A DNA stretch of 64,000 nt from an uncultured Acidimicrobiales bacterium (GTDB lineage: Bacteria; Actinomycetota; Acidimicrobiia; Acidimicrobiales; SHLQ01): NCBI GenBank assembly GCA_964562985.1, contig CAZLWE010000006.1, positions 20,991-84,990 on the forward strand, given 5' to 3'. Every line of letters starts with the position of its first letter. The stretch's first letter is position 1. Below are positions 21,059 to 57,494 of this stretch, piece by piece. A model generated the notes under the pieces. That model saw nothing but the letters and a program-made list of their open reading frames with translations. It was not told the origin of the DNA and did not search any database. The position numbers were made by a program, and so were the translations under genes.

Positions 21059-21667
21059 TCAACGATGAAGGCCCTTGGGGTCTGGGCCGTATTGATTTGA
21101 TCCTCGCTCACCGTCGATCGCCAGCAGGATGAACAAGATCAAGCCCCCGATGTACGGGACGAACGTGATGAAGTACCACTTGCCCGACTTGCCGGTGTCG
21201 TGAAGACGCCGACAGGTGACTGCCAGATTTGGGATCAAGAGTCCCAGAACCGCAATTGCGAGCAAGATTATGGGCAGGACCACGAGCGAAGACTCGCCAT
21301 CGGTTGCTCCTGAGATTGCAAAGATCACTGCAACAGGGACGATTAGCAGGGCCGTGTAGATAAGGGTGAACCACCAAAATTCAGCCCGAGACGCGCGGCC
21401 ATCGAAGGCGGCGTACTTCTCTTTCACCACGTACACGAACCATTCGAGGGGATTCCGATCCACGGGTTCTACCGGGTCCCATTGATGGCCGACCGGTTGG
21501 GGCGGTGGTCCCGGGAACCCGGTCGTTGCTACCGGAGATGGTGGTATCGCCACGATGGGTTGTGGTCCGCTAGCCCAAGCTGCCCCATCCCAGTATCGGT
21601 GGGTGTTTGGAGGGTCGCCTTGTGCTGGATACCAACCCGGGGTTGCTGCTGATCCATCCGGATGCAT
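21059..21667 (-). CDS. DUF2510 N-terminal motif plus a DUF805 membrane domain
   Basis: 202 aa. GWYPAQGDP..HRYWDGAAW is followed by RASRAEFWWF..., RRLHDTGKSGKWYF and multiple TM helices. Confidence 0.7.
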   Translation of the reverse strand: MHPDGSAATPGWYPAQGDPPNTHRYWDGAAWASGPQPIVAIPPSPVATTGFPGPPPQPVGHQWDPVEPVDRNPLEWFVYVVKEKYAAFDGRASRAEFWWFTLIYTALLIVPVAVIFAISGATDGESSLVVLPIILLAIAVLGLLIPNLAVTCRRLHDTGKSGKWYFITFVPYIGGLILFILLAIDGERGSNQYGPDPKGLHR

Positions 21668-21924
21668 ATCTCTCGCCTTTGTTTGCTGCTGACTATATTT
21701 CGGCGCCCGGCCAAGTCGAGTTAAGTGCGACTTGTAGCGATAGCGCCCATTCGCATCTGGTCAACATCGATGTCGGCGCCCACGAGTTCCGCAGGTAGGC
21801 GAGCTTGCGCTGGTCAGTCGGGATCCGTAGGGCCAGCGACCAACCCTGATTCTGCGCGTCTCTGACCGCTCTGTGGGGGTCGTTGCCACGCTAGGCTCCC
21901 CCCATCCGAATCGAGGAGTGTCGA

Positions 21925-22108: not shown

Positions 22109-23791
22109 CTAGAGGCCTTCGAAGGGATCTCCGTCGGCCGATGTGCTCGGCCGCCCTGCTTCGGCTGAGCGGGTAGCCCATGCAGGGAACGGGAACTCGA
22201 CCAGCAAAGGGATTGGTAGACGTGGCTGGCTGAGGTACATGGTGCCCGGCTTGAGGATCGTCGCCCGTTGGCGTTGCACGCCGGGCAAGAACCCGTACTG
22301 GTCGCGTCCTGCTTCGGCGGTGTCGAGTCGGCCGACCACTCGAATCGCGGAGTTTGCGACGACCCGTCGCTCGACTTCGCTTGCGGTCTGTTGGGCTCCG
22401 ATCAAAATGATTCCGAGCGACCGGCCGCGTTCGGCGACATCAAGCAGGATCTCCTTGATGGGGCTGGATGAATCCCGAGGTGCGTACTTGTTGAGTTCGT
22501 CGAGCACGATGAACTGCAACGGTTTGGCGACGCCCGCCGCCTCCTTTGCGTCGAACGCCTGGCGAAGTACCACGCCGACGACAAAGCGCTTCGCCCGGTC
22601 GTGAAGCTGGTGGATGTCGATGACGGTGAGCTGGTTTCGATCGAGGTCGAGCGCGAACTTCGGGGCATCGGCGATGTCGGCGCGGATGAGATGCTCCAGG
22701 TGGTGCACGGAGGAGTTGAGGCGACGCACGAAGGCGTTGATGCTGCCGCCACTCACGGCTCGACCCGTCCATCGCTGGTCGGCAGCGTCGTTTGGGTCAT
22801 CGGGTAGAAGCTTCGACTCGATCACCTCTACAAGCTCTCGGAAGGTACGTACCGTCGTGCCGTCGATTCGAACGGCTCCGTCCGGTGACGGTTCACCGCG
22901 GGTGGCCGCCAGCAACTGCGCGGTGACCGCCTGAACCACAATCGTGTATTGCTGGCGCTCATCTTCGGCATCGGCGAACAGGAAGGGCAGGAGTGCGGAT
23001 CGACAGAAGGTGTCGAGAGTCCAAAAGAATGGGGAGACACCGACGGTGCGTGCTCCGGTGGCCGGTGTGGCGTTCGGGTCGTTACGGCGTGGCGGAGCGA
23101 CGATTCCGACGCTGCTGAACGGGGAGGGCTCCAAACCGAGGTGTGCGTACCGGTCCCGTTGGCCGGGGGTGAGATGCGAGTTTGGTGAGTCGAGGAAGAG
23201 GAGGTCCTCGCCCTTCACGTTGAAGATGACGCCCTTGGTATTTACCGCCTCCGGGCCAAGTACACCCGAATTAAAAAGTGAGTAGAGCAAGAACGTGGCA
23301 TAACTCGTCTTCGTGGCAACTCCGGAGATACCGCTGATGTTGATGTGGGCGCCCTTGGTGCCATCGACGAAGTCGAGGTCGAGGAAGATCGGTTCGTTCT
23401 CTCGACTGAGTCCGGCGGGAAGTCGCCGCTCGACGTTGTCAAAGTCGAGCGCCGCGTCGCGCTCCTCGTCGGTCGCAACCCGTACCGCGGTGCCAGGAAC
23501 CGGAGGGACAAACACCTCGGGGACCACTCGCGTGACCTGAACGAGCGCGGCCTCGGCAACCTCCGCGGGGAGCAGGCCATCTGCGATCAAGAACACGTCG
23601 CTATCGAAGGTCGCCCCTTCATGACGGGCACGGACCTGATTGACGATGCCGTAGATCGAGATCTTCTCGCCTGTCGGCAACACCCGATCCATCGCCACGA
23701 CGTCGTCGAGTTGCAGCACCGAACCCTCGGCAACCGCCACCCAGAACTCGAGCGGCGTCGCGTCGTCGGTTCCCAGTACTCTCCCGATCAC
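22109..23791 (-). CDS. HerA-like (DUF87) hexameric ATPase/helicase
   Basis: 560 aa. The N-terminus is HAS-barrel-like (MIGRVLG...LEFWV...VAMDR...IYGIV). The P-loop region reads AHINISGISGVATKTS and Walker B is LQFIVLDELNKY. Confidence 0.65.
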   Translation of the reverse strand: MIGRVLGTDDATPLEFWVAVAEGSVLQLDDVVAMDRVLPTGEKISIYGIVNQVRARHEGATFDSDVFLIADGLLPAEVAEAALVQVTRVVPEVFVPPVPGTAVRVATDEERDAALDFDNVERRLPAGLSRENEPIFLDLDFVDGTKGAHINISGISGVATKTSYATFLLYSLFNSGVLGPEAVNTKGVIFNVKGEDLLFLDSPNSHLTPGQRDRYAHLGLEPSPFSSVGIVAPPRRNDPNATPATGARTVGVSPFFWTLDTFCRSALLPFLFADAEDERQQYTIVVQAVTAQLLAATRGEPSPDGAVRIDGTTVRTFRELVEVIESKLLPDDPNDAADQRWTGRAVSGGSINAFVRRLNSSVHHLEHLIRADIADAPKFALDLDRNQLTVIDIHQLHDRAKRFVVGVVLRQAFDAKEAAGVAKPLQFIVLDELNKYAPRDSSSPIKEILLDVAERGRSLGIILIGAQQTASEVERRVVANSAIRVVGRLDTAEAGRDQYGFLPGVQRQRATILKPGTMYLSQPRLPIPLLVEFPFPAWATRSAEAGRPSTSADGDPFEGL

Positions 23792-23928
23792 GAGACCGAG
23801 GCTATCGGAGGCTAGCGACCAGCCAGGATTTGGGCCGTTCGGGCGTCGACGCTCTCGGTAAGCGATTAGTGCGCTCTTTCATCTCCGGGTGCCTCGTCCG
23901 AAAGGTTCGGGAAACTACAGTTTCCCAG

Positions 23929-24750
23929 GTGAGCTATGGCACGCTGCCCGACGAGATTGATCTCGATGCGCCCCGACATCGCAAGCCGGTCTACCCACCG
24001 GTGGCCGCCAAGATGGGTGTAGTTGTCGAACATCGTGCGTCTGGTCGCGTCGGCGCGATCCTGTCTTTTAAACCCCAGCAGGTTGTGATCCGGGATCGGC
24101 ATGGTCGGGACCACACGCTGACCCCTCGTCCCGGCGCCTTCATGATCGATGGCAAGCCAGTAACCCTGCGACAACCGACAGTCCATGAGGTGCCCGATAA
24201 AGCGAGCCTTACCGCGTCGGGCTCGGTCGACCTCGGCGCCACGCCGGCCCGGATGGCCCGGGCGAGCCGTATCTGGGTCGAAGGCATCCACGATGCCGAA
24301 CTGATCGAAAAGGTATGGGGCGACGACCTGCGTGTGGAAGGGGTCGTTGTCGAACAACTCGAAGGTGCCGACGACTTGGCCGACCTAGTCGCTCGCTTTC
24401 AAGCTCGCCCAGGTCGCCGACTCGCGATTCTGCTCGACCACCTGGTCGATGGCAGCAAGGAGACTCGGATCGCCGCCACGATCTCGCATCCCGATGTACT
24501 GATAGTGGGGCACCCCTACGTCGACGTGTGGCAGACGATCCGGCCCGAGGTCGCAGGCATCGAGGCGTGGCCGGAAATTCCGAAGGGACAGGATTGGAAG
24601 CTCGGGGTGATGAAACACTTTGGGGCCACCGGCGAACCGGGGCTGTTCTGGAAGCGCCTCTTGGGCCGAGTGTCGGGCTTTAAGGATCTCGAGGTTCCTA
24701 TGGTCGGCGCCGTGGAGCAGATGATCGACTTCGTCACCATCGACTCCTGA
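23929..24750 (+). CDS. DUF3097-like conserved actinobacterial protein
   Basis: The ORF is open from 23830, and GTG 23929 is preferred because it leaves a divergent promoter region. It reads ..AAKMGVVVEHRASGRVGAILSF..VVIRDRHGRDH...GAFMIDGKPVTL. The start is uncertain. Confidence 0.5.
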   Translation: MSYGTLPDEIDLDAPRHRKPVYPPVAAKMGVVVEHRASGRVGAILSFKPQQVVIRDRHGRDHTLTPRPGAFMIDGKPVTLRQPTVHEVPDKASLTASGSVDLGATPARMARASRIWVEGIHDAELIEKVWGDDLRVEGVVVEQLEGADDLADLVARFQARPGRRLAILLDHLVDGSKETRIAATISHPDVLIVGHPYVDVWQTIRPEVAGIEAWPEIPKGQDWKLGVMKHFGATGEPGLFWKRLLGRVSGFKDLEVPMVGAVEQMIDFVTIDS

Positions 24751-25441: not shown

Positions 25442-25533
25442 CTGCCGAGCGCGAGGCGAAACGCAGCGTAAGAACTCTCAGAGAAAGGTCGACCCGCGCC
25501 TACGTTTTCGCTCTAAGTGGCAGAATGTAACCC

Positions 25534-26151
25534 GTGACTGTGCCCCGCTTTGTCCTCTCACGCCCCCGTGGCCGTTCCTGGCTTGTGGCGGGTGCTCTGG
25601 CTGTCGGACTTGCAGCCTGTGGTGGGGGTGGAGACGTCGCTTCTAACGGAACAGCTACCGCTGAGGCCCCAGCAGATGTGAGCGAGGCCGAGGCTGCGGC
25701 GGCGGAAAACCTTCCGCTACTTCGGCCAGCCGACCAAGTGGTCGACTTTGAAGTACTTCAGGTTGCCGACGGCTCGATTTCGACGCTGCGTCAAGAAGTT
25801 GCCGGGGACCGACCGGTCCTGCTTTGGTTCTTCTCTCCGCATTGACCGACCTGTCGTGCGGAAGCCGACGAAGTTGCGCAGTTTGCGCAAGAACATGACG
25901 AGGTAGTCCAGGTGATCGGACTCGGAACTCAGGACGATTTCCCGTTCGCTCGAGAATTCCGCGAAAGCGGTGGACTCGAACACGTCACCCTTCTTTGGGA
26001 TCCATCGTTCGCGACATGGCAGGCACTCGGGGTGCAGGCCAATTCGCAGATGATGGTGGTGACTCCAGATCTTTCACAGGGTTCGAGCTTGATCTTCGGC
26101 TTCACCGAGGATCAGCAACAGACCGTGCTCGACTTCGTCGCTGACCTCTAA
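25534..26151 (+). CDS. TlpA/ResA-like thioredoxin-fold lipoprotein with an in-frame UGA (candidate selenocysteine) at the first position of CxxC
   Basis: Track ORFs 25534..25845 and 25912..26151 share one frame. Read-through gives the lipobox LAVGLAAC, then ...PVLLWFFSPH-[TGA 25843-25845]-PTCRAEADEV...VIGLG...LLWDP..W..LGV..MMVV. Confidence 0.6.
25852..25870 (+). promoter_or_regulatory. SECIS-like hairpin 6 nt downstream of the in-frame UGA
   Basis: UGUCG(U)GC-GGAA-GCCGACG has 7 pairs including one G-U, a bulged U and a G-first tetraloop. A second perfect 7-bp hairpin lies at 25874..25890. Confidence 0.35.
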
Positions 26152-26174
26152 TAGGAACCCTAAGGAACCTTCTG

Positions 26175-26921
26175 CTACTGCAGTTGGGTGAATCGGCCAC
26201 CATCGATCGGAAGCGAAACGCCCGTGATGTAGTTGGCCTGCTCGGAGCACAAGAACGCCACGGCCTGGCCGAAGTCCGTAGGGTCACCGAGGCGACCCGT
26301 GGGTTGTGACGAGGCGAGTTCGTCCACGCCATCGCCATACAACTCGGCGAGTCGAGGTGTGAGATGCAGCCCAGGTTGTGCGGTGTTGATGGTGACGCCA
26401 TCGCTAACTACCTCGAGCGCCGTCGTCTTGAGAAATGCCGTCAACCCTGATCGGGCGGTGTTCGACAAGATGAGATTTGGGATCGGGGTATGCACCGACG
26501 TTGATGTGATCGCAACAACTCGGCCCCACGATTGCGCCTGCATCTCCGGGACGACCTTCTTCACCATGGTCGCCATGGCGATCAGGTTCATCTCGAGAGC
26601 CATATCGTACGTGTCGATATCGGTCTCCTTGAAGTCCCCAGGTGGCGGACCTCCACCGTTGGTGATGAGGATGTCGACCCCACCTCCGAGCGACTCTGTT
26701 GCTGCGTCGATGAACTCTGCGGCACCCTGACGGGTGGAGATATCGGCGGCGATCGGGATCGCGTTCGGCACCTTTTCGGCTGCCGCAGCGAGCCGTTCTT
26801 TGCTGCGGCCGTTGATGACGACCGAACACCCCGCATCAGCGAGGGCTATCGCTGACGCGAGGCCGAGTCCAGATGTTGAAGCGGCGACTACCGCACGTTT
26901 TCCACTGATTCCGAGATCCAT
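26175..26921 (-). CDS. SDR-family oxidoreductase (3-oxoacyl-ACP reductase-like)
   Basis: 248 aa with VVAASTSGLGLA (a TGxxxGxG variant), NGG, and a PG/ITG C-terminal block. Confidence 0.85.
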   Translation of the reverse strand: MDLGISGKRAVVAASTSGLGLASAIALADAGCSVVINGRSKERLAAAAEKVPNAIPIAADISTRQGAAEFIDAATESLGGGVDILITNGGGPPPGDFKETDIDTYDMALEMNLIAMATMVKKVVPEMQAQSWGRVVAITSTSVHTPIPNLILSNTARSGLTAFLKTTALEVVSDGVTINTAQPGLHLTPRLAELYGDGVDELASSQPTGRLGDPTDFGQAVAFLCSEQANYITGVSLPIDGGRFTQLQ

Positions 26922-27094
26922 TGGCCAAAGCTAGTCGGACTACTACACGCGACGTGAAGAACTTCTACGGATCCACCGATACTTCGGGCAGCGACGGGCG
27001 CGGGACGCCCTGGCGGCGGTGTACGGAAATTTGTGGGAACTCGTTCTCGACTTCATCCGTACAACCAACAGGTGGCGCCCCGAGGAGGCCGAAA

Positions 27095-27448
27095 ATGGCA
27101 GACGCCGAAGCAACACAAGTAGATCCGAACGAGAAGCAGGCGCATCCCAATAGCGGCAGTTGGCTCGAGGTCGCAATGACGGCATTGGCGACGATTGGTT
27201 TGCTCACCATCGTGATCGGCGGAGCTGTGCTGATCAGTGCCGGGCTCGCCGACGACGATGACGAACCACGAATCATTCGCGTGGTGGAACGTCCGCAGGA
27301 TGAACCGGAACAGATTTGCTACGAGGAAGTGGTGCCACGAGGTGGAGGCGGCCTGTTCGGGAACATCGATGACGATGACTTTGACGCGGAATCACAATTT
27401 GCCGACTCACGCGACATTCGCGTCGTGATCGTCTGCGAAGACTGGTAA
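27095..27448 (+). CDS. Hypothetical small membrane protein with an acidic C-terminal region
   Basis: ATG 27095 is preceded by GAGGAGG. There is one TM helix (MTALATIGLLTIVIGGAVLISAG) followed by D/E-rich sequence. The longer track ORF from 26921 would overlap the SDR start. Confidence 0.4.
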   Translation: MADAEATQVDPNEKQAHPNSGSWLEVAMTALATIGLLTIVIGGAVLISAGLADDDDEPRIIRVVERPQDEPEQICYEEVVPRGGGGLFGNIDDDDFDAESQFADSRDIRVVIVCEDW

Positions 27449-27464
27449 TCGCGAGCGAAGAGGA

Positions 27465-28178
27465 TTACTCCTCGATGCTTAAGGCCAGCGCGATGCATGG
27501 CCAGATCAGTTCCATCATGTAGCCATACCCCGTCGAATTAGGGTGCCAGTTATCGACCGCTAGGCCATCCCGGGATGGCCAATCCCACGGCCAGAACAGG
27601 TGGAAGTCTTTTTCTACAGCGGCGCTTTCGATCCGCTCGTTGAAGCGTCGTGCCATTCTCGCGTTGACCGGGTTCGAAACACTCACTCGTGCGACGACTG
27701 AACGGCTTTCGGGGAGACTGTCGAGGATTCGATCGAGGTGACCAACGGACTGCGGCCAACTATTCGGAGCCAGCAGGTTGTTCGCACCGGCGATCAGCGA
27801 CATGAGCTCAGGCTGTTGCCCGGCTTGGCGTAGCCTCCGGACACGCGGGAGTTGCGCGTTGGTGATGTCGTTGTACTGCGCCCCCGTAACAGCGAGGTTG
27901 ATAACGCGCCACGGGTCGCGAGTGCGGTTTCGAAGTCGCTCGACCATTCGCGGGACCCAGCTATCCATCGGGTCGAGAGCACCGACCCCCTGCGAACTCG
28001 AATCTCCGAGCGCGATCCACAACGGTCCCTCTGAATTTGCGGCCTCGATGTTCCATTCATCCCAAAAGCGGGCATGTGGTTCGCGATGAGCTTCGATGCC
28101 CGCAACATCGTCGGAGAAGCGAGAGAGAATTGACGAGAGGAACCCCTGTCGTCGTCGTGGCATGGGAGCGAAATCCAT
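27465..28178 (-). CDS. SGNH/GDSL-family hydrolase
   Basis: 237 aa with block I LWIALGDSSSQG, block III GANN, and a C-terminal D..HPN. Confidence 0.65.
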   Translation of the reverse strand: MDFAPMPRRRQGFLSSILSRFSDDVAGIEAHREPHARFWDEWNIEAANSEGPLWIALGDSSSQGVGALDPMDSWVPRMVERLRNRTRDPWRVINLAVTGAQYNDITNAQLPRVRRLRQAGQQPELMSLIAGANNLLAPNSWPQSVGHLDRILDSLPESRSVVARVSVSNPVNARMARRFNERIESAAVEKDFHLFWPWDWPSRDGLAVDNWHPNSTGYGYMMELIWPCIALALSIEE

Positions 28179-28378
28179 TCACTGCATCTTGGCCCGAGTA
28201 GCCGATCGACTGGCGTATTCGATGAGGAATTGCTCCTGAAGGGGAGAGAAATTTGAGCCTTCCGGCCCGGCTCGGTCCGACCGGTTGTGCCGATGAGAGT
28301 AGAAGATGTTTCTTGTCAACCAGCGATCGACAGCGTCTAGTGTGCGAGCTCACACTCCCGGAGATAGGACGCGCCATC

Positions 28379-29128
28379 ATGCGTGACCTCTCGATCGTCG
28401 TCCCGGCCTACAACGAAGCTGAGCGGATCGGTGAAACGCTCGAAGCGATCGCCGCGTTTCTCAACGGGCGAGATCAAAATGATGAGGTCATCGTCGTGGA
28501 CGATGGTTCCGAGGACCAGACCGCAGAGGTAGTTGACGGCTATCAACACCTGTTCCGCAACTTGCGCGTCGTTCGATCGCCTCGCAACGTTGGCAAGGGG
28601 CATGCGGTGCGTCAAGGAATGCTCGTGGCGACAGGTCGCTACCGGCTCTTCACCGATGCGGACAATTCGACCGACATCGGTGAGTTCGACCGCCTCATGG
28701 CCGCAGCTGACCAGGAACCGATCATGCCCGCGGTGATCATCGGTTCTGTCGCGCTGCACGAGTCAAACGTCACCGTCCGCCAGCCCGGGATTCGTTCGCA
28801 GCTGGGTGTCTTGGCGAACCGGATCATCCAGTGGCTGATCCTCCCGGGTATCCAAGACACTCAACGAGGGTTCAAAATATTTACTGGAGAAGCGAGTGAC
28901 GCGGTCTTTCGTCGCTGCACCAGTGACGGATGGGCCTTTGACGTCGAGGCACTCGCGATCGCGCAGGCGCTGGGCTACCACATTCTTGAGGTTCCCATCA
29001 CGTGGGAGCACCGGGAAGACTCGCGAGTGCAACCGAGCGCCTACGTGAGTTCGATGATCGATGTGTTCAGGATCAAGCGGCGTATCGACCGCGATGAGGA
29101 GATGGCGCTACCCTCCGAGCATGGCTGA
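28379..29128 (+). CDS. Family 2 glycosyltransferase (dolichyl/polyprenyl-phosphate hexosyltransferase-like)
   Basis: The start is moved to ATG 28379 (MRDLSIVVPAYNEAERI). Other motifs are VIVVDDGSEDQT, FTDADNS and QRGFK. Confidence 0.8.
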   Translation: MRDLSIVVPAYNEAERIGETLEAIAAFLNGRDQNDEVIVVDDGSEDQTAEVVDGYQHLFRNLRVVRSPRNVGKGHAVRQGMLVATGRYRLFTDADNSTDIGEFDRLMAAADQEPIMPAVIIGSVALHESNVTVRQPGIRSQLGVLANRIIQWLILPGIQDTQRGFKIFTGEASDAVFRRCTSDGWAFDVEALAIAQALGYHILEVPITWEHREDSRVQPSAYVSSMIDVFRIKRRIDRDEEMALPSEHG

Positions 29129-30332
29129 GGGACCGCGCGTTTCACTTTCCGATATCACCGCGGCAGCCGGTCGCCTCGAAGGCTTCATCACCCGAACTCC
29201 GCTGAACAAATCGTTGACGTTGTCGGAGATCTGTGGGGCAGAAGTCTTTCTGAAGTTCGAGAATCTGCAGTACACAGGCTCCTTCAAAGGTCGTGGTGCC
29301 CGAAACCGACTCCTCGAGGTGTCCGGTGGTCGGGGAGTCATTGCGATGTCGGCCGGGAATCACGCACAAGGGGTTGCCCACCACGGAGCCTTGCTCGGTA
29401 TCGAGACGACCATCGTGATGCCCGAGAACACACCGTTCGTCAAAGTGGCCCGTACTCGAGACCTCGGAGCAACAGTGGAGCTCGCTGGTGCTGACGTGAT
29501 CGAGTCGGCAAAGCGCGCTCGGGAGCTTGCGGCGGAGCGCGGTCTGGAGTTCATTCACCCATTCGACGATGCTGCAGTGATCGCGGGCCAGGGGACTATC
29601 GCTTTGGAAATGCTCGATCAACAACCGGATCTCGACATCATCCTCGCCGCTGTGGGCGGGGGAGGCCTTGCATCTGGTTTGGCGATCGCCGCTGCATCAC
29701 ACGATCAGACGGTCGAGGTCATCGGGGTGCAGTCCGAGCGATTCCCGTCCATGGCTGACCATCTTGAGTCCCGTCCGTCCACGGCGCTAGACGGATCGAC
29801 TATCGCCGATGGCATCGCCGTCTCCGAACCTGGCGAACTCACCTCGGCGATACTCGGCGAGCACGACGTAGAAATCCTTGTGGTCACCGAGGCCGCGATC
29901 GAGCAGGCGATCGCTATGTTGCTCGAAATCGAAAAGACCGTGGTCGAGGGTGCTGGTGCTACCGGCCTCGCAGCGATGATGGAGTACCCCGACGTCTTCG
30001 CTGGCAAGCGGGTGGGCATCGTACTGTGCGGCGGAAACATTGATCCTCGGACGCTGGCGCAGGTGAGTCTGCGGGGTCTCGCGATTCAGGGACGGCTCAA
30101 CCGGATACGGGTTGAGCTCGATGACACGCCCGGTCGGCTCTCGCTGGTGTCCGAGCTGATCGCGGCGAGTAAGGCCAACGTGGTCCAGGTCGATCACGAC
30201 GGCTTGGGTTCGACCGGAGCGCGCAGCACCATCCTCGAACTGCGCATCGACACCATCGATTCCGAACACGGACAAGTTGTTCTACAACGTCTCCTCGACA
30301 ACGGCCTCCGCGCCGAGTTGCTGCCCTGGTAG
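29121..30332 (+). CDS. ilvA: Threonine ammonia-lyase (threonine dehydratase) with a C-terminal ACT-like domain
   Basis: The start is moved to ATG 29121 and overlaps the GT2 stop by 8 nt. The PLP lysine block is FENLQYTGSFKGRGA. GGGGL and a regulatory tail are also present. Confidence 0.85.
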   Translation: MAEGPRVSLSDITAAAGRLEGFITRTPLNKSLTLSEICGAEVFLKFENLQYTGSFKGRGARNRLLEVSGGRGVIAMSAGNHAQGVAHHGALLGIETTIVMPENTPFVKVARTRDLGATVELAGADVIESAKRARELAAERGLEFIHPFDDAAVIAGQGTIALEMLDQQPDLDIILAAVGGGGLASGLAIAAASHDQTVEVIGVQSERFPSMADHLESRPSTALDGSTIADGIAVSEPGELTSAILGEHDVEILVVTEAAIEQAIAMLLEIEKTVVEGAGATGLAAMMEYPDVFAGKRVGIVLCGGNIDPRTLAQVSLRGLAIQGRLNRIRVELDDTPGRLSLVSELIAASKANVVQVDHDGLGSTGARSTILELRIDTIDSEHGQVVLQRLLDNGLRAELLPW

Positions 30333-30342
30333 GTGCCCCGTG

Positions 30343-30879
30343 TTAAGGCAGGCGGCCGACGTGGGCTAGTGCGAGGCGGACGAGTTTTTCGTGGCCGGCG
30401 CTTAGTTCGGCGGCGACGGTTGGTGATGTCACTTCGTCCGGTCGTAGCCAGACCAAGTCGAGTGAGTCTTGCGAAGGTTCGCAATCGCCGCTGACCGGGA
30501 CAACGTAGGCGAGCGATACCGCGTGTTGTCGCGGATCATGGAAGCCGGTGATGTCGGGATTGGGGAAGTACTCGGCGATCGTGAAGGGCTGCGGGGAGGG
30601 TGGAACTCTCGGTAGCGCGAGTGGTCCGAGGTCCTTTTCGAGATGGCGGAGCAGCGCGTCGCGGACTCGCTCGCCGTAAAGGATTCGGCCCGCGACGATC
30701 TCGCGATTGACCTCGCCATCGGCGCCAAGACGCAAGAGCAAGCCAACGTGGGTAACGATGCCGAGGTCGTCGGTGAGGACCGGAATCGCGTTGATATAGA
30801 TCACCGGCATTTTGCCGCGCAAGGTTGACAGATCGTCGTCAGACAACCAGTTCCCTTGTGTTTCGGTGATGTCACTCAT
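30343..30879 (-). CDS. NUDIX-fold-like protein with a degenerate Nudix box (possibly DUF4916 family)
   Basis: The start is moved to ATG 30879 (GGGAGA upstream). GRILYGERVRDALLRHLEKDLG fits GX5EX7R-U--..G but lacks the REUXEE glutamates. Confidence 0.45.
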   Translation of the reverse strand: MSDITETQGNWLSDDDLSTLRGKMPVIYINAIPVLTDDLGIVTHVGLLLRLGADGEVNREIVAGRILYGERVRDALLRHLEKDLGPLALPRVPPSPQPFTIAEYFPNPDITGFHDPRQHAVSLAYVVPVSGDCEPSQDSLDLVWLRPDEVTSPTVAAELSAGHEKLVRLALAHVGRLP

Positions 30880-30970
30880 GGGCTCTCCCGACGGTGAGAT
30901 CGAATGATCTCTACGACAAGAATGTAGACCTCGCAACGGGGAGCGATGCGACTTTCGCCCGGTGAGCGTG

Positions 30971-31447
30971 TTAGCGCGACTTCTCGAAGAGGACTTTTCG
31001 AATGATGTCGCTTGCGGTGAACCTGCCGATCGGACCCGTCGAGTAGAGCGACTGGACGATCTCACCATCGGGGTTAAGTAGCCAACCGGTGCCGTGGAGG
31101 AACTCCCTGTCACCAGCCTGGTAGGGAGCGCCGGTGTCTGCCGAGACTGTCGGAGCGTCGAGCTCTCCCCACATGGGGAACCCGACGTGCAGCCCCTCCC
31201 GGAGTTTGGCGACCGATTCGACGGAGTCGACGGAGCCTCCTGCGACTTTGATCCCGATGTCCATCAGTGGCAAAGCGTGCGTTGCGAAGTCAACCAACTG
31301 TTGACGACAGTATGGTCACCAATCGCCTCGGTAGAGCAGGACCGCTGCCCAATGTCCGGCGACGGAGGCGACCATGTCGTCCGCTTCGCCATCATGACGT
31401 ACGCCAACGATTGACGGCAGTTTCGAACCGTTCTCCAAAATGTGCAT
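30971..31447 (-). CDS. Peroxiredoxin-like / redoxin (AhpC-TSA family) protein with an in-frame UGA (candidate selenocysteine) at the first position of CxxC
   Basis: Track ORFs 31316..31534 and 30971..31297 share one frame. Read-through gives MHILENGSKLPSIVGV..DG...WAAVLLYRGDW-[TGA 31318-31316]-PYCRQQLVDF...GWLLNPDGEIV. ATG 31447 is the preferred start. Confidence 0.6.
31289..31305 (-). promoter_or_regulatory. SECIS-like hairpin 10 nt downstream of the in-frame UGA
   Basis: On the mRNA: GUCAAC-AGUUG-GUUGAC, a perfect 6-bp stem with G and U in the 5-nt loop. Confidence 0.35.
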
Positions 31448-31545
31448 GGAGCGAAGGTAGCAAGCAGTCCCGAAGTACGCCACGTGGCAACGGCAGTTGG
31501 AGAAGTCGCCGATCACTCGGCCGCGCTCAGCCATACACTTGCGCC

Positions 31546-33024
31546 ATGGATCACGACCCTTCGGTGAGCATTGATGTTGAGGAAACGGTCGACGGCGATT
31601 CTGCCGGTGGATCTTCTCGACTAGCGGTCATCGGAGGAGTGGCGGTGTTGATCATCGCCGTCGTGGTTGCGTTCTTCGCTCTCCGGCCAAGCGATGGAGA
31701 AACCGCTGCGGGGACAGCCCGCGAAGAGGGCGAAGAAACCGCTGACGTGACGGACTCCGATCCGGCTGCAGACGAGACCGCGACCACCGCGCCAGCGGGT
31801 CCTCCGCAGTTTGAGTCTCTTCCCATTGTCGAAGCGGTCCGAGCCGGTTCGGGCTTCTTGGGACTCATCACTTCATCGGGCAATCCGGTGCTCTTCGTTA
31901 CTGAAGATGGCGTTTCCTGGAGCGAGCTCGAGACCTCGGTCGTCGATCCACAGGGGATCGGAAGTTGGTCAAACCTGATCGCCTTCGACGGGGGGTTTGC
32001 GATGCTGCGCACCAGCGGCGATCTCTCCACATCAGCGGGACTCACCGAGAGGTTCATCTCGGTCGACGGCGTCGAATGGGAGCTCGATTCGAACTTCCAA
32101 CCCCTAGACAATCCCGGCGACTCCTTCTTCCCGGAGTTCCATTTGCCCGATGTGTTCGGGTTCGTTGCGTTCTCCACCGAGATACCGGCTGCCCCCCTCG
32201 GCCCACTCTTCGAGCAGGTGCTCGCCGAGGGTGCCCCGATCGACCCGTCGACGATCTGCTTCTTCGAAGAGTTCAATGCCGACCAATTTGAGGTCTTCCC
32301 CTGCGATACCGACGGCGAGACGTCAACCGGAGTCGCGACGGTGATCGCCACCGAGGACTTGGTTGACCCGGAGTCATTCGGTGCTGTCCAACAATGTGCA
32401 GCGTTCATCCGATCGCTGGGATCGACTCGAAGTGCGGCGATGGTCCTCCAGCGCTCGGGTGAGAGCGAAACGGTCGAAATCGACGGGTCATTCTCGACGT
32501 TCCAGAAATCGCTGCCGTCGGGCGTCATCGCCTCGGTCTTCGTCGGCGACCGCCTGTTTGCCGGATCGGCGGCCTGCGATGACTTCGCGGGTTCGGTCCC
32601 CGAGTTCCAGGCTGCAGAGATCGAACTCGTCGACCTCGACGGTACGGTTCGCCGCATCCCACTGCCGCCAGAGGTGCCACAGCCTCCAGCAACTCCTGCG
32701 GCTCCGTTCGCAACCGACACTGAACTCTTCGTCGTGCTCGAACAGTCGATCTGGCGACTCGACCTCGCAACCGAAGAGTGGACGATGGTCGTCGAACTGC
32801 CACCCGAGGCACTACGGCCCGGACGGTTCGGGTTTGCCGACGGCACTCGAGCGGTCAGCTTGGGCAGTGACGTCTTGTTCAGTGTCGACCTGGGGAGTGG
32901 GGAAGTCACGGAGACCCCAATCGAGATCGGCCGGTTCCCACAGATCCTCGAAGTCGACAGCGAGTTCATACTTGCACGGGACGAGGTCGAGGACGGCAGG
33001 CTCGACGTCGTTCCGCTTCGGTAG
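31546..33024 (+). CDS. Paralogue 1 of a four-gene family: N-terminally anchored protein with a PS(D/E)GETAAGT juxtamembrane motif and an Asp-box-like ectodomain
   Basis: The start is moved to ATG 31546 (MDHDPSVSIDVEE). The TM helix is LAVIGGVAVLIIAVVVAFFA, followed by LRPSDGETAAGT. Other motifs are TEDGVSWSEL, SVDGVEWELD and, near the C-terminus, SIWRLDLATEEWT. Confidence 0.7.
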   Translation: MDHDPSVSIDVEETVDGDSAGGSSRLAVIGGVAVLIIAVVVAFFALRPSDGETAAGTAREEGEETADVTDSDPAADETATTAPAGPPQFESLPIVEAVRAGSGFLGLITSSGNPVLFVTEDGVSWSELETSVVDPQGIGSWSNLIAFDGGFAMLRTSGDLSTSAGLTERFISVDGVEWELDSNFQPLDNPGDSFFPEFHLPDVFGFVAFSTEIPAAPLGPLFEQVLAEGAPIDPSTICFFEEFNADQFEVFPCDTDGETSTGVATVIATEDLVDPESFGAVQQCAAFIRSLGSTRSAAMVLQRSGESETVEIDGSFSTFQKSLPSGVIASVFVGDRLFAGSAACDDFAGSVPEFQAAEIELVDLDGTVRRIPLPPEVPQPPATPAAPFATDTELFVVLEQSIWRLDLATEEWTMVVELPPEALRPGRFGFADGTRAVSLGSDVLFSVDLGSGEVTETPIEIGRFPQILEVDSEFILARDEVEDGRLDVVPLR

Positions 33025-33072
33025 CCGCAGCGCCGCCATCGACGAATCCACGAGCGCCCCTACTATGGCGCC

Positions 33073-34620
33073 ATGGAGAAGGTGAGCGCGGTTCGAGTGG
33101 AGGTCGACGGCCATGTCGACGCACCGACACTCGCCGAACCCGTAGCGCCGCAGCCGTCCGGGTCTCGTCGCTGGATGTTCGTCCTCGGTGGCATCGCCAT
33201 CGTTGTGCTCGTCGTTGCGTTGGTTGCGTTGCAACCAACCGAGGGAGAGACGGCCGCGGGGACCGAACGCGGCACGACAACAACCGTTGCCCCTACGACC
33301 ACCACCGCAACCACGGTCACCACTCCGATCGTTCCAACGGTTCGCCGAGCAGTCGACCGGTCGGCGTCGAACGTCGGCGTTTTCTCCATGGTCCGCGACG
33401 ACAGCGGATTCTTCGCGCTCGGGCTGTCGGAAGGATTGACGCTCTTCCGGTCCTTGCGCGGTCTTGAGTGGCAGGAGGTCGCGATCGAAGTTTCCGAAGC
33501 GGCGGGTCCCGAGGAGGGTACGTGGACGGATTACCTACAGCTGATCGCGGTCGAGGATGGATTCGCCGTTCTGCGCGTTCGAGAGGACTTCACCCAGATC
33601 CCTCGGACGGTGGAGGTCGACCGGTTGTTTTCGGCCGATGGAGTGGTCTGGGACGTTGACACCTCGTTCGAGTCGATAGCCGCAGAACGAGGCGACGGCT
33701 GGGGGTTTGTGCACTTCGCCGATGCAGTCGGAGTCACCCAGGTCGACCGCGCCGTAGATCTTGAGGCGCTGCTCACGGGTGTGTTTACCGAGAGCGCTGG
33801 TGTTGATCCGGCAAACGTTTGCTGGATAGAACCTGTTGGGCTCAACCAGATCCGGACACTCCCGTGCGAGGACGCGACTGTCAGCTTCGGCACGGACATC
33901 ACCGCAACGGACCTTCGAGAACCGGAACGCTTCGACGCTCTCATCGAGTGCGCTGTAGCCATAAATATCGCGGACCCGCTCGTCAGCTCAACGGTGATTC
34001 GAGGTCGCGCCGGCACGCGTGTGCTCATGTCTGAGGATGGCCCTTTCGACCACATCGAGATAGGCGATGGCGCGATCGCGGCGCTTTCGTTGGGGAACAT
34101 CTACACAACAGACCAAGTCGACAGCACCGCGTGTGATTCCTTCGACGGCGGCTTTCCGGATTTGGTGACTCCAGCGGTTGAGCTCACGCTCGCCAATGGT
34201 GAGCAACGACGAGTGCCGCTACCCGATGACGCGTTGCCACAAGACAGAGATGCCGACCCCGAGTTGGATCGATGGGCTTCACCACGACTTCATGGCTCGG
34301 GTGACCGGCTCTTTCTCCTCGCTGGCACAGGAGTATGGAGCCTCGATCAGGCAACCGATTCCTGGATCGAGCTGGTAGATCTCCCCGTACCGCTCACCGG
34401 GTTTGTCGATTATGAGTTCTCCAGTGCCGAACAAGTCGTCGGGTTGAGCAATGACAGCATCGTCGTGGCTGACCTGGTCGAAGGAACCGTCGACAGGTTT
34501 GAGCATGGTGAAGACCTTGATGGTTGGGCGCGCTTGGTTTACGCCGACGATGACCTCTTCTTGATGGAGGTTGAGGACGGCGCGACAACCACCGTCGTGG
34601 CTGTCGATCTGCCGCAATAG
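33073..34620 (+). CDS. Paralogue 2 of the family
   Basis: MEKVSAVRVEV; SRRWMFVLGGIAIVVLVVALVA; LQPTEGETAAGT; a T-rich linker; LRGLEWQEV; SADGVVWDVD; GVWSLDQATDSWI. Confidence 0.7.
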   Translation: MEKVSAVRVEVDGHVDAPTLAEPVAPQPSGSRRWMFVLGGIAIVVLVVALVALQPTEGETAAGTERGTTTTVAPTTTTATTVTTPIVPTVRRAVDRSASNVGVFSMVRDDSGFFALGLSEGLTLFRSLRGLEWQEVAIEVSEAAGPEEGTWTDYLQLIAVEDGFAVLRVREDFTQIPRTVEVDRLFSADGVVWDVDTSFESIAAERGDGWGFVHFADAVGVTQVDRAVDLEALLTGVFTESAGVDPANVCWIEPVGLNQIRTLPCEDATVSFGTDITATDLREPERFDALIECAVAINIADPLVSSTVIRGRAGTRVLMSEDGPFDHIEIGDGAIAALSLGNIYTTDQVDSTACDSFDGGFPDLVTPAVELTLANGEQRRVPLPDDALPQDRDADPELDRWASPRLHGSGDRLFLLAGTGVWSLDQATDSWIELVDLPVPLTGFVDYEFSSAEQVVGLSNDSIVVADLVEGTVDRFEHGEDLDGWARLVYADDDLFLMEVEDGATTTVVAVDLPQ

Positions 34621-34702
34621 GTCGATCCGTCACCTTGTGAGCTGGTGAACCTTTCGGGGCTGAACCCTGGTGGATAGATCACGAGCTCTAAAATCTCCGC
34701 CC

Positions 34703-36130: not shown

Positions 36131-36133
36131 TCC

Positions 36134-46282: not shown

Positions 46283-46392
46283 CTACGGTCCGTCATCGGA
46301 TCGTCACCGCTTCTTTACGGGATCTTTTACCCCCACTTCGTTACGTTTCGTAGTGGGGTGCCAAGACGAGTGCCCGCGAGGGGGAGGGCCCC

Positions 46393-47970: not shown

Positions 47971-47974
47971 ATCG

Positions 47975-56905: not shown

Positions 56906-57454
56906 ATGGGTAGCCCGATTGACGAAGTAGCCACGCTGTTTGAAACCTATGGGTCGAGTACCTACGACGAGGGCGTGACCCTGGGTGAGCACTGCCTCCA
57001 GGCAGCCGCGATTGCATCCGTTGCTGGTTCGCCGGATCACTTGGTTGCGGCAGCGCTGCTCCACGACATTGGACATCTCCTTCAGGCCCGCGCGCGAGGC
57101 GAGGAGGACTACCTCGCCAATGACTGGAACCACGATGTGGTCGCACGGGATTGGCTCGAGCCTCGGTTTGGTGAAGCGGTCGCCGCGCCGGTCGGTGAGC
57201 ACGTCGCTGCAAAGCGCTGGCTCTGCTTTGCCGAACCTGACTACTTCGCCCGATTATCAGAGGCCTCCAAGGCGAGCTTGCGTGCTCAAGGCGGCCAGTT
57301 CGACGAGGTGGAGGCGGCGCAGTGGCGCAGCAGCGCCATTGGAGCGGCAGAGGCCATTCAATTGCGTCGTTGGGACGATGAGGCCAAGGTGGCGGACGTG
57401 TCCGTCGCTCCGTTTCGGGCGTACAACGCGCTGCTCGAACGTCTCGTCCGATAA
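56906..57454 (+). CDS. HD-domain protein of the PhnZ (phosphonate-degradation HD oxygenase) family
   Basis: Motifs are ..YDEGVTLGEHCLQAA..A, AALLHDIGHLL, EHVAAKRWLC, LSEASKASLRAQGG and LRRWDDEAK. An alternative GTG start lies at 56894. Confidence 0.55.
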   Translation: MGSPIDEVATLFETYGSSTYDEGVTLGEHCLQAAAIASVAGSPDHLVAAALLHDIGHLLQARARGEEDYLANDWNHDVVARDWLEPRFGEAVAAPVGEHVAAKRWLCFAEPDYFARLSEASKASLRAQGGQFDEVEAAQWRSSAIGAAEAIQLRRWDDEAKVADVSVAPFRAYNALLERLVR

Positions 57455-57494
57455 CCCGAATCTGCATCGCTTCGTCACGACTAGGGTTCGGTTC

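What the first reader, a model, noticed from the sequence alone, without database searches (positions are those of the whole stretch)
25534..26151. In-frame UGA at the first Cys of CxxC in a TlpA/ResA-like lipoprotein: candidate UxxC selenoprotein
ORFs 25534..25845 and 25912..26151 lie in the same frame. They are separated only by TGA 25843-25845 and sense codons. Read through, they give one ~205-aa protein with a lipobox (LAVGLAAC) and then ...DRPVLLWFFSPH-U-PTCRAEADEVAQFAQEH..VIGLG..LLWDPSF..W..LGV..MMVV. This is the W-x-x-x-x-C-x-x-C redox motif of TlpA/ResA/redoxin proteins, with the TGA exactly at the nucleophilic Cys position. Six nt after the TGA there is a hairpin, UGUCG(U)GC-GGAA-GCCGACG (25852..25870), with a bulged U and G in the first loop positions. 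This is the geometry described for bacterial SECIS elements. A second thioredoxin-fold gene 5 kb away (30971..31447) shows the same recoding signature. Both have U-P-x-C and the context UGA-CC. A simple stop-codon reading would annotate two fragments or a pseudogene.
Basis: partly seen in the sequence, partly recalled or inferred. Interest (0 to 1): 0.8.

Follow-up and report, generated by a model that had tools for sequence, protein, structure and literature searches.

The report
Two selenocysteine thioredoxin-fold redox genes
Two neighbouring genes for small redox proteins in an uncultured Acidimicrobiales bacterium each carry a 'stop' codon that is almost certainly read as selenocysteine; this is a familiar kind of bacterial selenoprotein, but public annotation cuts every copy in half.

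Summary
TGA 25843-25845 sits at the first Cys of the CxxC motif in a 205-aa lipoprotein related to M. tuberculosis DsbE/DsbF. A second gene (31447-30971, minus strand) has TGA at W-U-P-Y-C in a peroxiredoxin-like fold.

Evidence that both are selenoprotein genes:
- The codon is TGA in all 22 gene-1 loci (16 distinct RNAs, 12 species genomes) and all 49 gene-2 loci. None has Cys at that codon.
- More distant homologues of both genes have Cys at the aligned position.
- Both sides of each TGA are under purifying selection.

The likely SECIS is the next hairpin, 25874-25890 (UUGCGC-AGUUU-GCGCAA). It shows compensatory changes, is absent from Cys forms, and shares its 6-bp stem and AGUUN loop with gene 2's hairpin (31305-31289).

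No Sec machinery lies in the window. However, selA-selB(-tRNA-Sec) clusters occur in Acidimicrobiales genome bins (MAGs), including one MAG that also carries a gene-2 orthologue.

Both proteins belong to already catalogued UxxC selenoprotein kinds, so these are new members of a known kind, of modest interest.

The parts
25534..26151 (+). Gene 1: 205-aa selenoprotein, a DsbE/DsbF(Mpt53)/TlpA-like thioredoxin-fold lipoprotein with Sec at residue 104
   Evidence: The downstream 101 codons are kept open in all orthologues, with pN/pS 0.29 against 1.4 and 2.0 in the off-frame controls.
25534..25620 (+). Signal peptide with lipobox L-A-A-C (lipidated Cys29 at 25618-25620)
   Evidence: Read directly from the sequence. 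The LAAC-GGG motif is kept in all orthologues despite very diverged N-termini. No signal-peptide predictor was available.
25843..25845 (+). Sec codon (UGA) of gene 1, first position of U-P-T-C
   Evidence: TGA in 22 of 22 loci when the pattern allowed TGN. It aligns to the first Cys of CPTC in homologues P0009-P0016 and in M. tuberculosis DsbF 3IOS and DsbE 1LU4.
25852..25870 (+).
   Evidence: It folds in the window. Its register is not conserved, it is marginal against synonymous resampling, and it also forms in Cys homologues.
25874..25890 (+). Hairpin B: likely SECIS core of gene 1, UUGCGC-AGUUU-GCGCAA (or 7 bp plus a GUU loop), with the loop 34-35 nt after UGA
   Evidence: 94.6% of cells paired and 0 of 500 shuffles as good. 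Two pairs covary: CG 10 / UA 6 and CG 9 / AU 7. It beats synonymous resampling in 16 of 16 sequences, is absent from Cys homologues, and is present at the same offset in the diverged Sec paralogues of L001.
30971..31447 (-). Gene 2: 158-aa cytoplasmic Prx-like (AhpC/TSA-fold) UxxC selenoprotein with Sec at residue 44
   Evidence: The region upstream of the TGA has pN/pS 0.57 against 1.3 and 1.2 off-frame. Cys homologues P0124, P0147 and P0169 carry WCPYC or WCRYC.
31316..31318 (-). Sec codon (UGA) of gene 2, first position of U-P-Y-C
   Evidence: TGA in 49 of 49 orthologous loci found through the independent C-terminal motif TGPIGRFTA.
31289..31305 (-). SECIS hairpin of gene 2: GUCAAC-AGUUG-GUUGAC, stem base 10 nt and loop 16 nt after UGA
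   Evidence: Synonymous sites are frozen exactly over the hairpin: CGT 47/47, CAA 40/41, CAG 47/47, TTG 45/47, GTT 43/46, GAC 47/47. 96% of cells are paired, with two compensatory variants in L048 and L080.

Best explanation
Both genes are genuine selenoprotein genes of an Acidimicrobiales bacterium. During translation the in-frame UGA is decoded as selenocysteine by Sec-tRNA(Sec) delivered by SelB. SelB is recruited by a short mRNA hairpin inside the coding sequence: a 6-bp stem closed by C-G with an AGUUN loop. In gene 2 this hairpin starts 10 nt after the UGA. In gene 1 it is the second hairpin (25874-25890), 28 nt after the UGA, not the first one. Gene 1 then yields a membrane-anchored, exported lipoprotein whose U-P-T-C centre performs thiol/selenol-disulfide exchange outside the cytoplasm, like M. 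tuberculosis DsbE/DsbF or TlpA/ResA. Gene 2 yields a cytoplasmic peroxiredoxin-fold protein with a U-P-Y-C redox centre. Shown here: conservation of the TGA, translation across it, Cys at the aligned position in homologues, and a conserved, covarying, Sec-specific hairpin. Inferred: SelB binding, actual selenium insertion, export, and the direction of the redox reaction.
For: (1) The codon is TGA in 22 of 22 gene-1 loci (16 distinct RNAs, 12 species genomes) although the search pattern allowed TGN. It is TGA in 49 of 49 gene-2 loci found through a motif unrelated to the site. (2) Database proteins are truncated exactly there: more than 20 gene-1 relatives all end at ...WFFSPH, and all 88 gene-2 relatives are C-terminal fragments. 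(3) Cys occupies the aligned position in more distant homologues...WAWAPHCPTC and YRGHWCPYC. It also does in solved structures: DsbF 3IOS at E = 4e-11 and Mpt53 1LU4. (4) Purifying selection acts in frame on the far side of each TGA: pN/pS 0.29 and 0.57, against 1.2-2.0 in off-frame controls. (5) Hairpin B has 0 broken core pairs in 16 sequences and two covarying pairs. One of these couples an Ala/Glu change to a synonymous GCG/GCU change. Gene 2's hairpin has frozen synonymous sites and two compensatory variants. (6) Among hairpins with an AGUUN loop and a stem of at least 5 bp, 62 of 104 found in 1.36 Mb lie after these TGAs. The descriptor also found two further Sec paralogues in L001 at the identical offset. 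Cys homologues lack hairpin B: -1.0 and -3.1 kcal/mol against about -9. (7) Both hairpins satisfy the published bSECIS constraints of PMC13188914. (8) Sec machinery exists in the lineage. selA-selB-tRNA-Sec is in an Ilumatobacteraceae MAG (L098). selA-selB is in L191 and L194, and L194 belongs to the same MAG (CAZSOF01) as gene-2 orthologue L044. Thousands of SelB relatives were found, some named as Ilumatobacteraceae. Actinomarinales, also class Acidimicrobiia, are reported to have complete machinery.
Against: No selA, selB, selD or tRNA-Sec lies in the 64-kb window or in about 750 kb of orthologous loci, so the machinery is not shown for this exact genome or for any MAG carrying gene 1. No Rfam SECIS model matches, although those models are known to miss bacterial SECIS elements. 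Whole-region folding energies are not exceptional (z = -1.0 and +0.5). For gene 2 in the window, the 40-nt minimum-energy fold is an alternative structure that includes the UGA. The 34-nt spacing in gene 1 is near the upper limit of the consensus and differs by 18 nt from gene 2 in the same genome. There is no selenium or proteomic evidence.
Confidence: 0.9

Rival explanations
1. The first reader's hairpin A (25852-25870), 6 nt after the UGA, is the SECIS of gene 1, either alone or as a required partner or compacting spacer for hairpin B.
For: It folds in the window. Every orthologue can form some GC-rich hairpin in +10..+30, with -6.3 to -13.4 kcal/mol. If it is folded, the remaining single-stranded spacing to hairpin B is about 9-10 nt, close to the 10 nt seen in gene 2.
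Against: The pairing register is not conserved: 47.9% of cells are paired, equal to the shuffled and slid controls. It is only marginally more stable than synonymous resamples (fraction at least as stable 0.01-0.27). Equivalent hairpins form in the Cys homologues L204 and L205, so it is not Sec-specific. Its loop is 14 nt from the UGA, below the consensus minimum of 16. Its loop sequence varies (GGAA, UGAA, GUGA, GAGA, CGAAGC), whereas AGUU in hairpin B is invariant.
Confidence: 0.1
2. The UGA is decoded by something other than the Sec system, for example near-cognate read-through inserting Cys or Trp or a suppressor tRNA, with the conserved hairpin acting as a read-through stimulator.
For: Sec machinery is not shown in this genome. 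TGA stops are unusually rare in this clade (6 of 41), which could hint at leaky UGA termination.
Against: The UGA sits exactly at the catalytic Cys of CxxC in two unrelated thioredoxin-fold genes, which is the signature of Sec/Cys pairs. The hairpins fit the bSECIS model, including the G-U in the loop. selA, selB and tRNA-Sec occur in the order, and in one MAG that carries gene 2. No other convincing in-frame TGA genes are in the window. TGA still ends genes whose Pfam models finish there.
Confidence: 0.05
3. The genes are pseudogenes, sequencing or assembly errors, or split genes producing two separate polypeptides.
For: Every public gene call treats them as fragments.
Against: The same TGA occurs in 16 and 47 distinct RNA sequences from independent assemblies, with no other stops or frameshifts. 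Purifying selection acts on both sides. A split would cut the thioredoxin fold inside its CxxC active site.
Confidence: 0.02

Closest known systems
[quoted passage not shown]
   Same: Gene 1 has a thioredoxin fold, a Pfam Redoxin hit above cut-off, and a UxxC motif with Sec at the N-terminal nucleophilic position. Cys homologues exist.
   Different: Identity with the listed representative sequences could not be checked. This clade is an exported lipoprotein with the invariant motif WFFSPH-U-PTCR, and its SECIS lies far (34 nt) from the UGA. All public copies seen are annotated as truncated ORFs.
Mycobacterium tuberculosis DsbF (PDB 3IOS) and DsbE/Mpt53 (PDB 1LU4), secreted actinobacterial thiol-disulfide oxidoreductases
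   Same: These are the best solved-structure matches (E = 4e-11 and 9e-7). The block LWFWAPWCPTCQGEAP aligns with LWFFSPHUPTCRAEAD. Both are extracytoplasmic and actinobacterial.
   Different: They use Cys, not Sec. Similarity is at domain level only. The NCBIfam DsbE model scores far below its cut-off (23.8 against 123 bits). Whether gene 1 acts as an oxidase or a reductase is unknown.
'Prx-like thiol:disulfide oxidoreductase' selenoproteins (PF00578, UxxC/UxxU; PMC13188914 Table 1)
   Same: Gene 2 has an AhpC/TSA fold above the Pfam cut-off and a UxxC motif. The second Cys aligns with the peroxidatic Cys of BCP/PrxQ, and Sec replaces the conserved Thr of T-x-x-C.
   Different: It is not a canonical peroxiredoxin: PrxQ, AhpC and PrxU models score 18-27 bits against cut-offs of 260-272 bits. 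This clade has a distinctive C-terminal STGPIGRFTA motif and is Sec-only in all 49 genomes sampled. Cys forms appear only at 35-40% identity.
Bacterial SECIS consensus (bSECISearch model) and the E. coli fdhF minimal SECIS
   Same: The element is a stem-loop inside the coding sequence just downstream of the UGA, with a small apical loop carrying G followed by U. Gene 2's 17-nt hairpin, 10 nt after the UGA, closely mirrors the E. coli 17-nt minimal element at 11 nt (the E. coli figures are from my own knowledge).
   Different: The loop here is AGUUN on a perfect 6-bp stem without the bulged U. Gene 1 places the same hairpin 18 nt further downstream, behind another hairpin. No Rfam model detects either.
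Sec machinery of Actinomarinales (bioRxiv 10.64898/2026.04.03.716425)
   Same: The lineage is in the same class (Acidimicrobiia). The preprint reports selA, selB, selC and selD, several selenoproteins per genome missed by gene callers, and failure of the Rfam SECIS models.
   Different: It is a different order with low-GC, 1.1-Mb genomes. The preprint does not describe these two families or their SECIS.

Membership tests
Bacterial selenoprotein gene (Sec-UGA plus bSECIS) | In-frame UGA conserved in orthologues, with an intact open frame beyond it | tested here: met
   TGA in 22 of 22 gene-1 loci and 49 of 49 gene-2 loci, with no extra stops or frameshifts.
Bacterial selenoprotein gene (Sec-UGA plus bSECIS) | Cys-containing homologues with Cys aligned to the UGA (Sec/Cys pair) | tested here: met
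   Gene 1: P0009-P0016 with WAWAPHCPTC, plus DsbF and Mpt53. Gene 2: P0124, P0126, P0147 and P0169 with WC(P/R)YC.
Bacterial selenoprotein gene (Sec-UGA plus bSECIS) | Both sides of the UGA are translated (purifying selection in frame) | tested here: met
   pN/pS is 0.29 downstream of the gene-1 TGA and 0.57 upstream of the gene-2 TGA. Off-frame controls give 1.2-2.0.
Bacterial selenoprotein gene (Sec-UGA plus bSECIS) | Downstream stem-loop fitting the bSECIS model: 3-9 nt loop, 4-16 bp stem, G in the first two loop positions, loop 16-37 nt after UGA (PMC13188914) | tested here: met
Gene 2: 6 bp, loop AGUUG, 16 nt. Gene 1 hairpin B: 6-7 bp, loop AGUUU or GUU, 34-35 nt. Both have covariation or frozen synonymous sites.
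Bacterial selenoprotein gene (Sec-UGA plus bSECIS) | selA, selB, selC and selD present in the same genome | tested here: inconclusive
   They are absent from the window and the orthologous loci. They are present in Acidimicrobiales MAGs: L098 has selA-selB-tRNA-Sec, and L191 and L194 have selA-selB. L194 shares its MAG (CAZSOF01) with gene-2 orthologue L044. selD was not looked for in these MAGs.
Bacterial selenoprotein gene (Sec-UGA plus bSECIS) | Selenium actually incorporated at the UGA | not testable with these tools
   This needs 75Se labelling or mass spectrometry.
TlpA/ResA/DsbE-like extracytoplasmic thioredoxin-fold oxidoreductases (Redoxin PF08534 / cd02966) | Domain model matched above the curated threshold | tested here: met
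   Redoxin 43.8 bits (cut-off 26.6) and AhpC-TSA 35.3 bits (cut-off 26).
TlpA/ResA/DsbE-like extracytoplasmic thioredoxin-fold oxidoreductases (Redoxin PF08534 / cd02966) | CxxC active site at the position of the family's redox motif | tested here: met
   U-P-T-C aligns column for column with C-P-T-C of DsbF 3IOS and C-P-F-C of Mpt53 1LU4.
TlpA/ResA/DsbE-like extracytoplasmic thioredoxin-fold oxidoreductases (Redoxin PF08534 / cd02966) | Export signal or membrane anchor | tested here: met
   The N-terminus is Arg-rich, followed by 13 hydrophobic residues and the lipobox L-A-A-C. The lipobox is conserved in all orthologues. This is by sequence rule only; no predictor was run.
DsbE/CcmG cytochrome-c maturation equivalog (TIGR00385, PRK15412) | Score above the NCBIfam curated cut-off | tested here: not met
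   23.8 bits against 123.15, and 20.3 against 359. No ccm, ccdA or dsbD gene is nearby in the window, though Cys homologue L205 sits next to DsbD_TM.
Prx-like thiol:disulfide oxidoreductase selenoproteins (PF00578, UxxC) | AhpC/TSA domain above threshold with UxxC in place of the Prx T-x-x-C | tested here: met
   AhpC-TSA 43.7 bits (cut-off 26). In the alignment to BCP 5IPH, U falls on the Thr and the second Cys on the peroxidatic Cys.
Canonical peroxiredoxins (PrxQ/BCP, AhpC, selenoprotein PrxU) | Equivalog model above cut-off, and the conserved Thr of PxxxTxxC | tested here: not met
   PrxQ 27 against 260 bits, AhpC 23.9 against 272, PrxU 17.8 against 270. The Thr is replaced by Sec.

The most novel reading that the evidence does not exclude
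These genes may expose a lineage-specific SelB recognition element in Acidimicrobiales: a perfect 6-bp stem closed by C-G with an AGUUN loop. In one genome it works at two very different distances from the UGA, 16 nt and 34 nt to the loop. In gene 1 the extra 18 nt are taken up by a GC-rich hairpin that may act as a compacting spacer. In addition, the clade's marked avoidance of TGA stop codons (about 15% of stops at 61% GC) may be a genome-wide consequence of how UGA is decoded there.
Probability: 0.25. Interest if true: 0.5.

Novelty: new member of a known kind. Interest (0 to 1): 0.35.

Why it matters
Practical value:
- More than 100 public protein entries for these two families are truncated at or just after the Sec codon. 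An exported Dsb-like oxidoreductase and a widespread Acidimicrobiia redox protein are therefore invisible to functional annotation.
- The simple descriptor found here (UGA, then 10-28 nt, then a 6-bp stem with an AGUUN loop) picked out true cases with high specificity in 1.36 Mb. It could help annotate selenoproteins in Acidimicrobiia, where Rfam models fail.

Biological value:
- It adds evidence that Sec use is common in Acidimicrobiales, including sponge symbionts (Candidatus Poriferisodalis).
- It gives an example of an exported, lipid-anchored selenoprotein.

None of this overturns current understanding. UxxC thioredoxin-fold proteins are the commonest class of predicted bacterial selenoproteins.

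Tried and rejected
- Rfam at gathering threshold on the whole window, and at E up to 10 on both recoding sites, gave no SECIS or tRNA-Sec hits, only noise (RsmY, a snoRNA).
- ARAGORN found no tRNA in the window and no tRNA-Sec in 22 orthologous loci.
- tblastn with E. coli SelA, SelB and SelD against the window plus about 750 kb of loci gave nothing.
- The gene-1 motif pattern in metagenome contigs gave 0 hits.
- The search for related loci with the gene-1 protein gave only two distant loci.
- Hairpin A as the SECIS was rejected.
- An RNAalifold helix pairing UGAC with GUCG (columns 1-4 with 11-14) was ignored: it is invariant, trivial, and includes the UGA.
- A scan for other in-frame TGAs with coding signal on both sides returned only gene 2 plus antisense-frame artefacts. 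Gene 1 narrowly missed my GC-pattern filter.
- The AGUUN-hairpin scan of the window gave four other hairpins, none with an in-frame TGA in a real gene.
- General reassignment of UGA was rejected: TGA still ends genes whose Pfam models finish there, and in-frame TGAs are otherwise absent.
- I could not tie SelB-bearing contigs to the MAGs that carry gene 1.
- No structure prediction was run, because the sequence alignments to DsbF and BCP already place the Sec residue.

Full report
**1. Observation**

The sequence is as described. Gene 1 runs from GTG 25534 (an in-frame TAA lies just upstream at 25528-25530) to TAA 26149-26151. Its single internal stop is TGA 25843-25845. The 205-aa read-through product starts with an Arg-rich, hydrophobic signal peptide ending in the lipobox L-A-A-C (Cys29). 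It then reads ...DRPVLLWFFSPH-U-PTCRAEADEV.... Pfam Redoxin (43.8 bits) and AhpC-TSA (35.3 bits) both pass their cut-offs.

The second gene lies on the minus strand, 31447..30971, with TGA at 31318-31316 in ...YRGDW-U-PYCRQQLVDF... (AhpC-TSA 43.7 bits). The window is 61% GC and encodes ordinary chromosomal functions: a ClpC-like ATPase, an SNF2 helicase, SbcCD, succinate dehydrogenase, GcvT and a tRNA synthetase.

**2. The TGA is conserved and translated**

A protein search with the read-through product returned more than 20 relatives at 49-89% identity. Their N-termini are very different, yet all end at exactly ...DRPVLLWFFSPH. More distant full-length homologues read ...LLWAWAPHCPTC....

I fetched DNA for six of them. 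I also scanned one representative genome per species with a degenerate pattern across the motif, leaving the critical codon as TGN. All 22 loci are Acidimicrobiales MAGs or metagenome contigs, representing 16 distinct downstream RNA sequences. All have TGA, followed by an open frame of 101 codons (103 and 108 in two) that is conserved at the protein level. Downstream of the TGA, pN/pS is 0.29 in frame against 1.4 and 2.0 in the other two frames.

For gene 2, all 88 database relatives are C-terminal fragments beginning just after the CxxC region. A genome scan with the unrelated C-terminal motif TGPIGRFTA found 49 true orthologues. They are Acidimicrobiia, including complete Candidatus Poriferisodalis chromosomes, plus one Burkholderiales MAG. 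Every one has TGA at W-U-(P/R)-Y-C. The 30 codons upstream of the TGA, which no gene caller includes, have pN/pS 0.57 against 1.3 and 1.2 off-frame.

An exhaustive HMMER search found full-length Cys homologues at 35-40% identity with YRGHWCPYCR or YRGDWCRYCR. Pseudogene, sequencing error and split gene are therefore excluded, and both sites are classic Sec/Cys pairs.

**3. Which RNA element?**

Two hairpins follow the gene-1 UGA. Only 47.9% of cells pair, which equals the shuffled and slid controls. It is only slightly more stable than the same peptide re-encoded with synonymous codons (fraction of resamples at least as stable 0.01-0.27). Equivalent GC-rich hairpins form in the Cys-containing homologues L204 and L205.

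Hairpin B (nt +32..+48, window 25874-25890, UUGCGCA-GUU-UGCGCAA) behaves very differently:
- It has no broken core pair in 16 sequences.
- Two pairs covary fully: C-G 10 / U-A 6, and C-G 9 / A-U 7.
- The second covariation couples an Ala/Glu replacement to a synonymous GCG/GCU choice, which only RNA pairing explains.
- It beats synonymous resampling in 16 of 16 sequences.
- It is absent from the Cys homologues: -1.0 and -3.1 kcal/mol against about -9.

In gene 2 the six codons CGU CAA CAG UUG GUU GAC are almost invariant at synonymous sites in 47 distinct RNAs, while flanking codons vary freely. They form GUCAAC-AGUUG-GUUGAC, starting 10 nt after the UGA. The two rare stem variants (L048, L080) are compensatory.

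The two elements share an architecture: a 6-bp stem, a closing C-G pair and an AGUUN loop. A plain descriptor for that architecture found 104 hairpins in 1.36 Mb of Acidimicrobiia DNA (both strands). Of these, 62 lie behind the TGA of gene-1 or gene-2 orthologues. Two more revealed tandem, about 40%-identical Sec paralogues of gene 1 in L001 (WFWAPH-U-PTC), with compensated stems at the identical 37-nt offset.

Both hairpins satisfy the published bSECIS constraints: loop 3-9 nt, stem 4-16 bp, G in the first two loop positions and often followed by U, loop 16-37 nt after the UGA (PMC13188914). Hairpin A's loop lies at 14 nt. Rfam detects nothing, as also reported for Actinomarina.

**4. Sec machinery**

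None is in the window or in about 750 kb of orthologous loci. I spent the last genome scan on the SelA PLP-lysine motif GDKLLGGPQ. Three hits are Acidimicrobiia:
- L098 (Ilumatobacteraceae MAG) has selA, selB and a tRNA-Sec(UCA) side by side.
- L191 has selA-selB.
- L194 has selA-selB and belongs to MAG CAZSOF01, whose contig L044 carries a gene-2 orthologue with the TGA.

SelB relatives of the L098 protein number in the thousands, and some are named as Ilumatobacteraceae. A 2026 preprint reports selA, selB, selC and selD in all 84 complete Actinomarinales genomes. The machinery is therefore established for the order and for one genome with gene 2. It is not established for the window's own genome, which remains the main gap.

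**5. What the proteins are**

Gene 1's best solved relatives are M. tuberculosis DsbF (3IOS, E = 4e-11) and DsbE/Mpt53 (1LU4). U-P-T-C aligns on their C-P-x-C. It is not a CcmG/DsbE equivalog, and no ccdA or dsbD gene is nearby, although one Cys homologue sits beside DsbD_TM. I infer an exported, lipid-anchored thiol/selenol-disulfide oxidoreductase. The direction of its reaction is unknown.

Gene 2 aligns to BCP/PrxQ. Its second Cys falls on the peroxidatic Cys, and Sec falls on the conserved Thr of T-x-x-C. It fails every peroxiredoxin equivalog model. It is a Prx-fold CxxC-type redox protein.

**6. Comparison and novelty**

[quoted passage not shown] These genes are therefore new, unannotated members of known kinds. 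The points beyond the catalogue are:
- the corrected SECIS assignment
- the shared AGUUN hairpin used at two spacings in one genome
- the lipoprotein nature of gene 1
- the Sec-only status of gene 2's clade

**7. Verdict**

The SECIS is reassigned to 25874-25890 (about 0.8). Interest is modest, at 0.35.

Noticed in passing
window, whole (for example TGA-ending genes 21059-21760(-), 23644-24750(+), 28226-29128(+), 56979-58565(+)): TGA is a rare stop codon here despite 61% GC. It ends 6 of 41 called genes (4 of 31 Pfam-supported), against TAA 16 and TAG 19. The closest relatives share this (L003 1 of 15; L018, L070 and L074 0 of 12). Other Acidimicrobiia loci of the same GC have 49-58% TGA (p about 2e-5). 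TGA still works as a stop. No explanation was tested.
   Followed up: partly
window 31252-37519 (+): Four consecutive large ORFs (about 460-590 aa) have no Pfam hit and are paralogues of one another (C against D 40% identity; A against B 29%). Each has a short N-terminal region, one transmembrane helix, a 'FRPSEGETAAGTER' motif, a Thr-rich linker and a roughly 350-aa outer domain. The array is also present in L003.
   Followed up: partly
L001 (VYCW01000102.1, Acidimicrobiaceae sponge MAG) TGA at 10115 and 11249: Two tandem, diverged paralogues of gene 1 (WFWAPH-U-PTC) each carry an in-frame TGA and a compensated hairpin B at the same 37-nt offset.
   Followed up: partly
L048 (Burkholderiales MAG JBDSSV010000281.1); L027, L033, L076 (MAGs labelled Verrucomicrobiales, Chthoniobacterales, Acidobacteriota): L048 has a gene-2 orthologue with W-U-R-Y-C, context UGA-AG and a compensated stem (GUCAGC...GCUGAC). 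The other three carry near-identical Acidimicrobiia-type copies, which suggests binning contamination or recent transfer.
   Followed up: no
window 25534-25620 and orthologues P0004, P0006, P0017, P0024: Many orthologues have a twin-arginine-like motif before the hydrophobic core of the lipoprotein signal peptide (FRRPWV, RRRVGL, KRRIAFL). The window has RPRGRSW. Export by Tat rather than Sec is possible.
   Followed up: no
L205 551-2151 (ena:ERZ25039600:contig_31787): A Cys-containing homologue of gene 1 overlaps the end of a DsbD_TM (CcdA-like) gene. This fits a reductive TlpA/ResA-type pathway. No such partner is near gene 1 in the window.
   Followed up: no
window 31318-31279 (-): For the window's gene-2 RNA, the 40-nt minimum-energy fold is an alternative hairpin that pairs the UGA-CCA with UGGUU (loop CGUCA) rather than the conserved 17-nt hairpin. 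Most orthologues have C at +12, which weakens this alternative.
   Followed up: partly
window 25534-31447; L003/L004; CAYUKM010000021.1 (L013 and L068): Genes 1 and 2 stay 5-6 kb apart, with DUF4916/NUDIX, PALP and SDR genes between them, in several relatives. The two selenoprotein genes are syntenic but not co-transcribed, since they lie on opposite strands.
   Followed up: partly
window 46354-49420 (+): Two adjacent DUF4153 paralogues (about 538 aa each as stop-to-stop frames) overlap by about 170 nt in those frames.
   Followed up: no
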